DNA of 64,000 nucleotides from Eledone cirrhosa (Eukaryota): positions 173,042,001 through 173,106,000 of the forward strand of contig OZ024741.1 of assembly GCA_964016885.1 (NCBI GenBank). Direction: 5' to 3'. Within the stretch, counting starts at the first letter, position 1. Each line of letters starts with the position of its first letter. The position numbers and the translations under genes were made by a program. Below the pieces are notes generated by a model, which saw only the letters and a list, made by a program, of their open reading frames with translations, had not been told where the DNA came from and did no database searches. Shown here in pieces: positions 6,191 through 45,137 of this stretch.

Positions 6191-6646
6191 AATATCGGTA
6201 CTCACCCAGTTATATCTACACGCATCTGTGACAACATATCTCTGGTACTAATAAACAACAGTCACACGCAAAGACATAAAGCCATGTAGCTACACAACTA
6301 CCCGCTTCTACACACAATCTATATACTACTAAAACTCTGTGATTGTGTGCTTGTCTGTAATTTAATACAACCAAAACGGCACATGATGGGAAAATACTTT
6401 GAAAGGAATTTGCCCCTGAAATGGGAATACAAATGGAATAAAACAAGTTTCGCGTAAACCGGGGCACGGGTTCCTCAGATACGGGGTTTTTTGGGGTACC
6501 ATCATAAGTAGAGAGAAGAGATAGTGGTTGTGAATAGAGTAGATTGAAAGAGAGACATAGAGAGAGAATATGTATACACACACATATATATATACACATA
6601 CATATAAATATATATATATATATATATATATATATATATATATATA

Positions 6647-6758
6647 GGAACCAGTAAGACCCCGACAGCTGAGCTCAAGCCGTTTCGACGGCTAATTCTG
6701 GACTAAATGAACATTTATCCTGGTATTTAAATAGCCGATCTTCTCAAGGGGTAATTCC
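6647..6758 (-). ncRNA. Type I hammerhead ribozyme, U3-A8 core variant (PLE1 inverted arm)
   Basis: Reverse-complement copy of the motif at 12844-12955. Confidence 0.8.
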
Positions 6759-7850
6759 ATATATGGTCAAAGTGATTGTCAAAAATCAGTAGTAATTCTG
6801 TGGTTGCAAATTAGTAGGGGAGATGGTGGCTAAACCTGCCAGTAGGAGAAAGAGGGGAGGGGGTGGAGTAGACCCAATCAAGCGTTGGTAGTGCCAGCTA
6901 CAGCTGGGCATGAGGTCAAAGAAGATACAGGGGAGGGGAGGGGGAGGAAGTCGGAACGGTAGGTAGAACAATGGGGGGTAAAAATAGGAAAGAAAAAATA
7001 CTGAGAGTGAAGAAAAGCAAATAAGTGTAAAGAAAAAATTAAATTCTACGACCTAGGTGTCAGGCTATTGTTAGGCGAGAATAAAATAAAGAAAGAAAGA
7101 AAGAAGTAAATAAATAAATAAATAAATAAATAAGGAAATAAGTAAAAGAACTAGGTGGGACGAATTAGGCAAGGACCCTTTTAAGAGGTATAAGTACGTA
7201 AATGATACGGTGACTGGTCAACAAAAGGGGCCAAAATACTAAAGAGACTACCACGAAATAAACAATAAAGGTTTCCATCCCGGGCCAGCAACGACCCAGT
7301 GCAGCAAAGTGAACTTGTACGACATAATAATTCTGAGTCCCGGGAAAAATATATACTAATGCTAACTCTAAAAGATCTAAAACAAGCTACATGAAAGTTC
7401 GTACGAAATAAAGGTAGAATACGGAGAAATAAGTTCAGAATCCACCCCGCCCAGAAGAAAAGCGAAGCAAGAAATACTGAAACGAAAAAATAAGGCATAA
7501 GTGCCACTAAGAAATATAGAGGGCACAGAGAATAGTGGGAGCGGTCGGAAAAAGGGGGGCAAGTATCCGGGGTCTAAGCCAACTGCTATAAAGGGCGGAG
7601 TCCGCCAAATCTATCAAAGACTAGGGGAGGGGGGAGTGGGGGTACTAAGGCTACATGGGGCCAAAGGGCAGCCTCGGGTGGGCGAGAAAAGACGCCGACA
7701 AAGGAGAAGAGCTGGGGTAGAAGGACAAAGGAGAGAGGGGGGAAGGAAATAAAGGATGCGATAAAAGAATACAAAGAAGATCTTACGTCTTCCTTGGCAA
7801 GCAGGGGTTACCCATTGCAAAATCGGCAACTGGGGTGTTATAGCCCTAGT

Positions 7851-42537: not shown

Positions 42538-42726
42538 ATTGTTTCTACTTTTGGCACAAGGCCAGCAATTACGCAGTAGATTACTGGTACTTTATTTTAT
42601 CGACCCCATAAGGATGAAAGGCAAAGTTAACCTCGGCGGGATTTGAACTCAGAATGGCAAGGGCCGTAACTCTATACGTCAAAGCATGGCGTCCGACCCT
42701 CTACCGATACTGCCAATCCACCGCCC
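42538..42726 (-). mobile_element. SINE family 1 with target-site duplication
   Basis: gtgacatctaaataat on both sides. Confidence 0.9.
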
Positions 42727-44359
42727 TTTTGTGACATCTAAATAATAAATCTTATTTACATCTCAAATACTTCTGTTCGCCTCCAAACTATTAGAATAAA
42801 TTCTATGCAGTAAATTCTTGAAGTTTTCTTAGTTCGGAAAAAAAATGTATCTGCAACACCCACCCAACTGTTCAATGGGGCTTATCCTTTTTAACTTTCG
42901 CAACTCTTCTAAAAAAATAAATAAATAAATAAATAAATAAATAAATAAAATTCGTAAGAGAATAAATACAAATATGCTGGGAGCAAACTACAGGACCCCA
43001 TTTGCTCATAATACAGAGATGGGGGGGGGGGCGAAAGAGATGGAGGCGATGACAGTGGGAGTTCGGCTCTTCCGTGGCGAACACTTTCTCTACTTATCGC
43101 TCTAACATTCATATGCCGTAGAAGGATTTTCATTGTTTGCGTAATGTTGACAACAAGGCTCACTAGAACAGATTCTCTCAGCAACTTAAACCTTTCTTAA
43201 CCTGATTGAATACACTACAGGCAAATGTAAAATATGTTTTATTAAATTTAAAACCAGTCTGTTTCAGGTCGATCTTCGTTCAACATGTGTAGTCGTTATA
43301 CTTTATTCAAGACACAAAGCCTTTCTCGATCTTAAGTAAAACATCTTTATATTTCGTTCCGAATACCAGGTCGATTATCCTGCCCATCCCTTCCTCAACC
43401 AAATCCGAACCCAAACTAGTATATAGAGAAATCGTAAACTCATAGTTTTAACAAGCTTTACCTTCCCTAATCCAATAAAAAAAACTCAGCACTCGTTCCT
43501 ATATTCCATTATTGTTATAAACTGCATCGCAATACTTAACAAAGGTCTCTTTAAACACAGATAATAACTTCTAAACGAAACTGGCCAACTGTCTATTTCT
43601 GCACTTTCTGGCTCCTGCTATAAATCTTCATTTTATGCATCTTAGGAATCCAGAAAAAAATGAGAATACACATATTCTTCCCTTCTACCCAACAGCCTCT
43701 AAAGCCATCCAATTCAAGCATAAATCCTACAACCAGTGAACCGATGTCTTCTGACACCAACCTCTAAGTCAAAGTTATGATCACTATCACATTCTAATTT
43801 GCTAGCCAAAAACCGTCCGATAGTATTTCTTACAAATTATCACGGAATTACCTGCCGCCTTATCCGTCGGTGCGATAATGTACTTTTACAGAACTCATTG
43901 CCCTAGCACGTTTATTAAGTATAGACGTCTCACCCACCACTCGAGCCAACTTCCTTATCATAATTTTAACGAAGCTACTGAATCTTACCTTCCAGCACCC
44001 AAAGGCCTCTTTTGTAACACCATATATTATGCCTAACTTACATACGAAGTCATGTATGCGTTTACAAGTGATTATGAGTATCTGTGTATATTAGAATGTA
44101 TATTGATATGCATGTATGTATATGAGAAATTATATATATATATATATTATATATATATATATATATATATATATATATATATATATATATATATATATAT
44201 ATATATATATATATATATATATATATATATATATATATATATATATATATATATATATATTTATATATATATACATACATATATATGTATATATATAGAG
44301 AGAGTATATATATATACATACATATGTATATATATATATATAAAATATAAATATTTACA

Positions 44360-45137
44360 CATACACCAATTAAACAAAGCCAGAGGTATATATGTGTTTT
44401 GGCAACTTTTCACGATGTGGCTCAATGAAGAATTAATAAATTAAATAATCAGAGCAAAATACTATAGAGTAAAGCATGTCCAGAGAATTATTTGATATTA
44501 TATATACATCATCTCTATTCCCAATCAGCATAATTAACCACACAAAAAATCAATTAGACCGGGCTATAAGAATAAAAGGCATCTATGAAGAAACAGTAAA
44601 TAAATATACCATTGCGGCGTCTTCGCGCACAACCGCTATAGAATATTTACCCAACATTTCAACAGCACGTGGAAATTAATTAAATATACGGTCAACCATA
44701 CATAATTAGGTAAAAATTAATGTTAGAAATGCTTATACACATACCAGGATTAAATCACTAAATGCCGACCCTAGGGTTTCTCTCACTTTTGAGATACCTT
44801 ATTAAGGAAATACTCGAGTTTTAGAGCTCTTCAGGGGACAAACTGAAGAGCTCTAAAACTCGAGTATTTCTAACATTAATTTTTACCTAATTATGTATGG
44901 TTGACTGTATATTTAATTAATTTCCACGTGCTGTTGAAATGTTGGGTAAATATTCTATAGCAGTTGTGCGCGAAGACGCCGCAATGGTATATTTATTTAC
45001 TGTTTCTTCATAGATGCCTTTTATTCTTATAGCCCGGTCTAATTGATTTTTTGTGTGGTTAATTATGCTGATTGGGAGTAGAGATGATGTATATATATTA
45101 TCAAATAATTCTCTGGACATGCTTTACTCTATAGTAT
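44360..45137. mobile_element. Fold-back PLE-terminus remnant; the right arm has an internal deletion
   Basis: Outer arms 44459-44730 / 44866-45137 and inner arms 44807-44834 / 44843-44870; tail ~44360-44458; TA-rich flanks. Confidence 0.75.
44763..44840 (-). ncRNA. Hammerhead ribozyme with a weak or truncated stem I
   Basis: CTGAAGA; stem II base ctc/gag; GAAA; palindromic ccctaggg; GUC site. Confidence 0.6.

What the first reader, a model, noticed from the sequence alone, without database searches (positions are those of the whole stretch)
6644..45137. Six independent (TA)n insertions share one fold-back geometry: long arm with a ~80-105-nt tail, short arm stopping at an internal TA site
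Seen: inverted pairs at 6644-13036, 13517-13893, 36823-37155, 39278-39484, 41269-41696 and 44360-45137. Five unrelated sequence families are involved, all HHR-bearing. In each, one arm continues for ~78-105 nt (tail) while the other ends at an internal TAT and merges into the microsatellite. Known: PLEs form partial tandem or inverted pLTR structures with a tail. Inference: a stereotyped two-step integration in which one cDNA starts at the RNA 3' end and the opposite one is primed at a fixed internal TA site that pairs with the (TA)n target, resembling twin priming or a fold-back template switch.
Basis: partly seen in the sequence, partly recalled or inferred. Interest (0 to 1): 0.75.

Follow-up and report, generated by a model that had tools for sequence, protein, structure and literature searches.

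The report
Two-start mirror insertions of Penelope retrotransposons
These six back-to-back mirror inserts in TA repeats are Penelope-type jumping genes and small non-coding, likely passenger elements, a published layout; genome-wide nearly every mirror pair has one long and one short end and, where tested, both halves match one parent copy, so both cut DNA ends likely copy the same RNA from two fixed start points.

Summary
Observation confirmed. All six are head-to-head pairs in (TA)n from five families, with a one-sided 77-103-nt tail. Locus 1 has the Hydra-clade Penelope-like (PLE) protein motifs (3,531-bp unit). Families 3 and 6 are non-coding hammerhead tandem units. The layout (inverted copy, one-sided tail) and two internal RT start sites are published. 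Added here: the pairing is strict. Of 120 loci picked by the short end, 53 pair with a long end and none with a short end; of 59 long ends, 42 pair short and 1 long. Both arms carry the same donor alleles (0 of 189 discordant, against 26% between insertions). The short arm often reaches further upstream than the long one (8 of 25), which rules out simple fold-back. The long end is also internal, not the RNA 3' end. A bulged hairpin lies just past both ends in families 1 and 6. Inner ends pile up at a likely RNA 5' end. Reads from three other samples show both ends. The scan noted the same pattern before on other DNA of this and other genomes. Best reading: two-ended priming on one RNA, inferred and untested.

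The parts
6608..6646 (.). (TA)n target, left flank of locus 1
6644..9713 (-). Locus 1 short-end (B) arm: unit positions 396-3453 of the 3,531-bp Hydra-type PLE
9709..13036 (+). Locus 1 long-end (A) arm: unit positions 209-3531; 5-nt overlap at the inner junction
9709..11755 (+). [quoted passage not shown]
   Evidence: motifs compared with PMC8557442 section 11; no Pfam hit
12850..12943 (+). Predicted type I hammerhead with U3/A8 core (mirror copy 6659-6752); predicted cut 98 nt before the long end
12959..13036 (+). 78-nt tail of locus 1; bulged hairpin at 12964-12987, 6 nt past the short-end site
13492..13516 (-). A25 run between the long end of locus 2 and the (TA)n; seen in no other family-2 insertion fetched
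13517..13752 (-). Locus 2 long arm; tail 13517-13610; hammerhead motif 13658-13712 with CAGAAGA core
13754..13893 (+). Locus 2 short arm; hammerhead motif 13792-13846
36823..37002 (-). Locus 3 long arm (464-bp non-coding unit); tail 36823-36924
37000..37155 (+). Locus 3 short arm; reaches 80 nt further 5' than the long arm and alone holds the hammerhead core (37004-37073)
39278..39420 (-). Locus 4 long arm (relative of family 1); inner end at -142; only the 3' half of the hammerhead
39428..39484 (+). Locus 4 short arm
41269..41527 (-). Locus 5 long arm (second protein-coding Hydra-type family); tail 41269-41349; hairpin 41326-41350; hammerhead 41395-41465
41528..41696 (+). Locus 5 short arm; hammerhead 41589-41659
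44356..44844 (-). Locus 6 long arm (688-bp non-coding unit); tail 44356-44458; hairpin 44420-44455; hammerhead 44767-44834
44866..45137 (+). Locus 6 short arm

Best explanation
These are insertions of Penelope-like elements (two families with Hydra-type protein motifs) and of non-coding hammerhead repeats that likely borrow their enzyme, and each mirror pair likely arises when both ends of a cut in (TA)n prime reverse transcription on one RNA, one at an outer site A and one at an inner site B 77-103 nt upstream. Shown: fixed A and B ends, one of each per pair, identical donor alleles in both arms, independent arm lengths, short junction overlaps. Inferred steps: (1) the GIY-YIG domain cuts both strands of the self-complementary (TA)n; (2) each 3'-ATA end pairs with a UAU a few bases 5' of a bulged hairpin that positions the enzyme, likely a dimer; (3) the A cDNA copies the tail and then recopies the stretch already used by the B cDNA, by strand displacement or on the next unit of a tandem RNA; (4) the two cDNA ends are joined by microhomology or a short filler. 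If one end fails, a single arm results. If both run off the RNA 5' end, a 150-450-bp mini-palindrome results.
For: Pairing: 120 short-end-selected loci of four families gave 53 directly adjacent A partners (26, 15, 6, 6 of 30 each) and no B-B pair; the rest were single arms, unresolved or other (counted by hand). The first 59 exact A ends on contig C1 gave 42 A-B, 1 A-A, 1 other, 12 single, 1 ambiguous, 2 unresolved. Automated count for family 1: 54 A-B of 57 pairs; family 5: 29 of 31. Three multi-unit tandem arrays whose far ends I fetched all end A on one side and B on the other. Same donor: 0 of 189 comparisons discordant at 16 polymorphic sites within 30 young insertions, against 1462 of 5521 between them; small family-1 pairs 13 of 382 against 28.5%; lower within than between in families 2, 5 and 6. 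Two separate copying events: B reaches further 5' in 8, A in 15, equal in 2 of 25; Spearman 0.25, p 0.23. Hairpin motif: exactly 2 places in the 3,531-nt family-1 unit, each 6 nt past an end, and 2 in the 688-nt family-6 unit. Inner ends: 81 of 108 family-1 arms stop at -143..-130, at an initiator-like TCATTTAGT (consensus recalled), only 2 near the predicted cut; 32 of 58 family-5 arms stop at -260..-255; about 29 of 97 family-6 arms stop within -3..+25 of the predicted cut. Raw reads of three other samples have (TA)n loose ends at B (2600-2925 reads per run) and A (7398-10149) and strand-switch joints at -142..-125. In vitro, an anole PLE cuts and extends both strands from two internal sites that bound the tail, and is predicted to be a dimer (PMC11167929).
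Against: No RNA or biochemical data. Shared alleles cannot tell one RNA molecule from two RNAs of one donor; private A-to-G changes shared by both arms were not enriched (3 of 34 private shared changes). Family 4 shows little within-pair concordance (34 of 130 discordant against 30%; old copies). Two A-A pairs exist (L249, L216) and a few partners end at other TA sites. The strict hairpin motif was not found in family 2 or in the family-3 copy scanned, the sequence past A is unknown for families 2 and 5, and I fixed the motif rule after seeing it. The family-3 inner ends show no clear peak at the cut in the unbiased set (3 of 31). The anole study saw no difference in start site between the two strands, so it does not by itself give one-of-each pairing. 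Most family-3 and family-6 copies picked by B are single arms (24 of 30 each).
Confidence: 0.62

Rival explanations
1. Two RNA molecules from the same active donor, one per subunit, each primed at one DNA end; some asymmetry of the complex makes one use site A and the other site B.
For: Explains overlapping arms without strand displacement; both arms can stop at the same 5' point; fits shared alleles if one donor dominates in a cell.
Against: Many donor haplotypes exist (16 polymorphic sites, 26% discordance between insertions), yet no mixed pair among 30 young ones; gives no simple reason for one-of-each ends.
Confidence: 0.15
2. The fixed ends are made after copying: the element's endonuclease trims or resolves a longer intermediate at two sites (the tail as a resolution product, as suggested in PMC8557442).
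For: Both ends sit at TA(T), which an AT-preferring nuclease could cut; the hairpins lie on the side that is lost.
Against: In the anole PLE the two genomic ends match measured RT start sites (PMC11167929); many other TA-rich places in these units are rarely used as ends.
Confidence: 0.1
3. One cDNA (or an antisense template) folds back and primes on itself, and the second arm is a copy of the first that stops at an internal TA and joins the target (self-priming, as proposed in PMC3846280).
For: Near-perfect palindromic centres in many mini-insertions, for example on CATATG in family 5; would give identical alleles in both arms.
Against: The short arm holds sequence missing from the long arm in 8 of 25 long pairs and in window locus 3; long arms shorter than the tail occur (L073, L250, L259, L276, L278, L284, L295, L345); B-only single insertions are common, so B is a priming site of its own.
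Confidence: 0.08
4. Sequencing or assembly artefact, or later gene conversion between arms.
For: Arms of locus 1 have no substitution over 3,057 aligned bases.
Against: Fixed 78-nt offset at thousands of places; arm-specific differences persist (18 in 26,302 bases); short reads of three other samples show both ends and strand-switch joints.
Confidence: 0.02

Closest known systems
Hydra clade of C-terminal EN+ Penelope-like elements (Craig et al. 2021, PMC8557442; section 11 and passages read)
   Same: RWK-like, DKT, CxCX5C, CxxC and CxH motifs, C-terminal GIY-YIG, hammerhead motif, insertion in (TA)n, partial tandems, inverted 5'-truncated copy, tail often at one end only
   Different: Unit 3.5 kb (described as generally under 3 kb); tails 77-103 nt against 30-40; non-canonical hammerhead cores in two families; strict one-of-each pairing and shared donor alleles not stated in the passages read
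Poseidon of the green anole, internal RT initiation (Frangieh et al. 2024, PMC11167929; parts 1-2 of 4 read)
   Same: Two internal start sites bound the tail, downstream of the hammerhead and near the ORF start; both DNA strands cut and extended; AT-rich target; predicted dimer
   Different: There the start site has no homology to the cut DNA and both strands use the same starts; here both starts sit on TA(T) and each pair uses one of each; different clade
Adineta vaga Penelope elements, self-priming model (PMC3846280; passages read)
   Same: Head-to-head inverted pLTRs, optional tail at one of them, initiator-like motif in the pLTR, microhomology at junctions
   Different: That paper favours self-priming on an antisense template; arm lengths here argue for two primings from the target
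L1 twin priming (passage in bioRxiv 10.1101/2024.12.14.628481; otherwise recalled)
   Same: Both DNA ends prime cDNA on one RNA and the products are joined head-to-head
   Different: In L1 the two pieces cover adjacent, non-overlapping parts and the first starts at the poly(A); here both starts are fixed and internal and the arms usually overlap almost fully
Non-LTR retrozymes (bioRxiv 10.64898/2026.07.22.740005; part 1 of 5 read)
   Same: Families 3 and 6: non-coding tandem units of 464 and 688 bp with a type I hammerhead motif, proposed to depend on PLEs
   Different: Here they show the same A and B ends, inverted pairs and (family 6) hairpins as the coding elements, which is a direct footprint of that dependence

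Membership tests
EN+ Penelope-like elements | Single ORF with RT and GIY-YIG endonuclease | tested here: met
   One open frame of over 700 aa per 3,531-bp unit with FDI..Y, G..DS, YRDD and VIY..YIG motifs read by eye; Pfam gave no hit. Family 5 long copies code for a similar protein.
EN+ Penelope-like elements | Partial tandems and inverted 5'-truncated copy with one-sided tail | tested here: met
EN+ Penelope-like elements | Type I hammerhead in the pLTR | tested here: inconclusive
   Core motifs and stems found in all families by pattern and folding; not among the Rfam rows shown; cleavage untested; two non-canonical cores
Hydra clade | RWK motif, DKT in place of DKG, CxCX5C linker, CxxC and CxH in the endonuclease | tested here: met
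   RWR, DKT, CNCPDRSIC, CNLC, CKH in family 1; CNCPAKNKC, CNLC, CLH in family 5; list
Hydra clade | Insertion into (TA)n | tested here: met
Hydra clade | Length generally under 3 kb | tested here: not met
   Family 1 unit is 3,531 bp; the paper says 'generally', so not an exclusion
Hydra clade | RT phylogeny inside the clade | not tested
   No named reference proteins were fetched
Non-LTR retrozymes (families 3, 6) | Non-coding tandem unit with a type I hammerhead per unit | tested here: met
   464- and 688-bp units, longest open frames 75 and 72 aa
Non-LTR retrozymes (families 3, 6) | Self-cleavage and circular RNA | not testable with these tools
   No raw RNA reads under this species label were offered; the family-6 pile-up at the predicted cut is indirect
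L1-type twin priming | Inverted and direct pieces cover non-overlapping parts of the RNA | tested here: not met
   Arms overlap by 124-3,057 bases in 30 young pairs; met only in the few pairs whose long arm stops inside the tail
L1-type twin priming | First cDNA starts at the RNA 3' poly(A) | tested here: not met
   Site A is internal in families 1, 3 and 6; only window locus 2 has an A run

The most novel reading that the evidence does not exclude
Penelope-like elements integrate by a programmed double priming: two small RNA hairpins dock an enzyme dimer so that both ends of a double-strand cut reverse-transcribe the same RNA molecule from two fixed sites, the outer enzyme displacing the inner cDNA. 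One rule then gives the one-sided tail, the inverted pLTR, mini-palindromes by 5' run-off, and the spread of retrozymes from ribozyme-cut RNA.
Probability: 0.4. Interest if true: 0.75.

Novelty: new member of a known kind. Interest (0 to 1): 0.52.

Why it matters
How PLEs integrate, and why they leave inverted repeats with a one-sided tail, is named as an open problem in PMC8557442 and only partly answered in vitro. This genome holds thousands of near-identical insertions and intact donors, and they give sharp constraints: one A end and one B end, one donor, free arm lengths, hairpins past both starts, run-off at fixed 5' points. These point away from the published self-priming idea and define a small RNA (about 170 nt) on which the mechanism can be tested. 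The same footprint on non-coding hammerhead repeats supports their mobilisation by PLE enzymes. The layout itself is not new.

Tried and rejected
Rfam: the rows shown (150 of 165) were weak microRNA-type and similar matches to hairpins and simple repeats, all below gathering score, no hammerhead. Pfam: nothing useful for four ORFs. Pairing ends by coordinates alone misleads at long distance: the one A-A pair (6.2 kb) was two separate insertions, and one A-B pair (6.2 kb) had a nearer variant partner, so counts rest on sequence. The excess of exact A junctions (20,642) over B junctions (6,802) is not an A-A excess; it comes from variant B sequences and single A arms. One outward B-B candidate in family 6 (L341/L342) was two insertions. 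Contigs of four runs did not bridge the inner junction of locus 1 at 9713; the one listed joint is a sense-strand contig that fits both arms, so the window's own junction is neither confirmed nor refuted. Shared A-to-G editing marks as proof of one RNA molecule: not found. Fixed distance from hammerhead cut to short end: rejected, about 20, 54-60, 85, 50 and 308 nt. RNA start mapping: no suitable run. Target-site duplications cannot be read inside (TA)n. No protein fold, dimer prediction or tree was run. Paper searches found no paper that states one-of-each pairing or same-donor arms; the library lacks most subscription papers, including the older PLE reviews, and I did not open any supplements.

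Full report
Observation. All six pairs are present at the stated coordinates, head-to-head with 3' ends outward, between (TA)n runs. One arm carries 77-103 extra bases. Only loci 1 and 4 are related, so five families is right. I call the long end A and the short end B; negative numbers count from A.

Identity. Locus 1 is a 5'-truncated mirror pair of a 3,531-bp unit that occurs elsewhere as near-perfect tandem arrays. The unit has one long ORF with RT motifs, a C-terminal GIY-YIG-like domain, and RWR, DKT, CxCX5C, CxxC and CxH. These match the Hydra clade as described in PMC8557442, which also inserts in (TA)n. Pfam found nothing and no tree was built. Family 5 is a second coding family of this type. 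Families 3 and 6 are 464- and 688-bp non-coding tandem units. For family 2 only about 400 bases are known. Every family has a predicted type I hammerhead upstream of both ends; several window copies hold only part of it.

Fixed ends. In 33 regions around exact copies of the family-1 tail plus the window, the partner end was almost always at -78. That set was picked by A, so I also picked by B. Exact junction patterns occur 20,642 times (family 1 A), 6,802 (family 1 B), 1,908, 181 and 138 (B of families 5, 6, 3), with 0 for each reversed control. The first 30 B matches of each family were fetched. Directly adjacent A partners: 26, 15, 6 and 6. B-B pairs: none in 120. The rest were single arms (most of families 3 and 6), arms too long to resolve, or odd ends (hand counts). 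Of the first 59 exact A ends on contig C1, 42 were A-B, 1 A-A, 1 other, 12 single, 1 ambiguous and 2 unresolved. If each end chose its start freely, at most half of the pairs would be mixed; an automated count gave 54 of 57 in family 1 and 29 of 31 in family 5. Three tandem arrays followed to their far ends also end A and B. A second A-A pair was seen among 30 family-4 loci.

Not an artefact. Raw short reads from three other samples under the same species label show (TA)n loose ends exactly at B and A, and strand-switch joints at -142 to -125. Depth there is biased by the reduced-representation library. The window's own inner junction was not bridged by the contigs tried.

One donor, two copying events. 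In 30 young insertions the arms never differ at 16 sites that vary among donors (0 of 189), while arms of different insertions differ at 1462 of 5521; 18 arm-specific differences in 26,302 bases remain, so the arms were not simply homogenised. Older families show the same trend, except family 4. The arms have unrelated lengths: B reaches further in 8, A in 15, equal in 2 of 25 (tandem cases and very short arms left out). Some A arms stop inside the tail and share nothing with B. So neither arm is a copy of the other, and fold-back cannot be the rule. Junctions mostly have short overlaps of 1-14 bases or short fillers.

Both starts are internal. In tandem copies the sequence runs on past A through TAT into the ORF leader. 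Earlier notes of this scan pointed to a hairpin past each end. I tested it: a CTC/GAG stem with a two-base 3' bulge occurs at exactly two places in the family-1 unit, 6 bases past A and past B, at two places in the family-6 unit (4 past B; 19 past my zero, about 5 past the A ends at +13 to +15), and past B in families 4 and 5. It was not found in family 2 or, under the strict rule, in family 3, which has a looser bulged hairpin. The rule was set after seeing the motif.

Inner ends. Most family-1 pairs are 150-200-bp palindromes: 81 of 108 arms stop at -143..-130, at TCATTTAGT, which resembles an initiator element (recalled), and only 2 stop near the predicted cut at -98. Family 4 stops at the same TTAGT. 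In family 5, 32 of 58 stop at -260..-255; half of that set was picked by a query starting at -256. In family 6 about 29 of 97 arms (12 of 40 in the B-picked set) stop within -3..+25 of the predicted cut, with 4 and 1 in the neighbouring windows; some arms may be counted twice. Family 3 shows no clear peak. I read these as run-off at the RNA 5' end: a transcription start in coding families, the ribozyme cut in family 6. A structural pause is not excluded.

Mechanism. Both DNA ends of a cut in (TA)n likely prime on one RNA at A and B, with 2-3 bases of pairing and a hairpin as landing site. The A cDNA then recopies the B stretch by displacement (PLE RTs lack RNase H, recalled) or on the next unit. 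Shown: ends, pairing, alleles, lengths. Inferred: cutting, dimer, hairpin role, single molecule. Whether the TAT match exceeds chance was not tested.

Known and new. The inverted copy with a one-sided tail is in PMC8557442 and PMC3846280. Two internal starts, extension of both strands and a predicted dimer are in PMC11167929. My five searches on the topic found no statement of strict one-of-each pairing or same-donor arms; supplements and older subscription reviews were not seen and may bear on this. The scan has reported the same pattern on other DNA; those notes are not independent evidence. Verdict: real, a known kind of structure, with genome-scale constraints that make an open mechanism testable. 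Interest 0.52.

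Noticed in passing
window 14180-15769: Five near-identical 310-bp tandem units, each with a canonical hammerhead motif, between (TA)n runs; retrozyme-like, not inverted.
   Followed up: no
window 50963-52953 (+) and 62222-64000 (-): Two more decayed Hydra-like PLE ORFs (DKT or CxC linker motifs); no inverted partner seen nearby; the second runs off the window.
   Followed up: partly
window 16933-17356; copies at 42-376, 38850-39230, 40317-40512, 42534-42730, 46825-47062, 56779-56963: A roughly 190-bp SINE-like repeat family; two copies sit back-to-back at 16933-17356.
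   Followed up: no
window 695-3462, 17362-20980, 23391-25468, 27594-29550, 47029-49522: Several decayed LINE-like copies with endonuclease and RT remnants (labels from motifs read by eye).
   Followed up: no
G000 C1:178964212/178964241, C2:33956016/33956037, C6:3731436/3731487, C1:86286611/86286656, C1:5866367/5866573: Short ends of two insertions face each other across a short (TA)n; in L071 the two share the same inner junction in mirror image.
   Followed up: no
family 2, loci L094-L123: Several long ends are followed by (TC)n before the (TA)n, and the window copy by A25; core varies between CTGAAGA and CAGAAGA.
   Followed up: partly
L294 (G000 C1:41.39 Mb): About 190 bases of unrelated, partly palindromic DNA between the two arms of a family-5 pair.
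   Followed up: no
G000 C1:437198050 to about 437214400: Near-perfect tandem array of more than four 3,531-bp family-1 units with a short inverted long-end arm; a likely donor and a possible sign of a circular or read-through template.
   Followed up: partly
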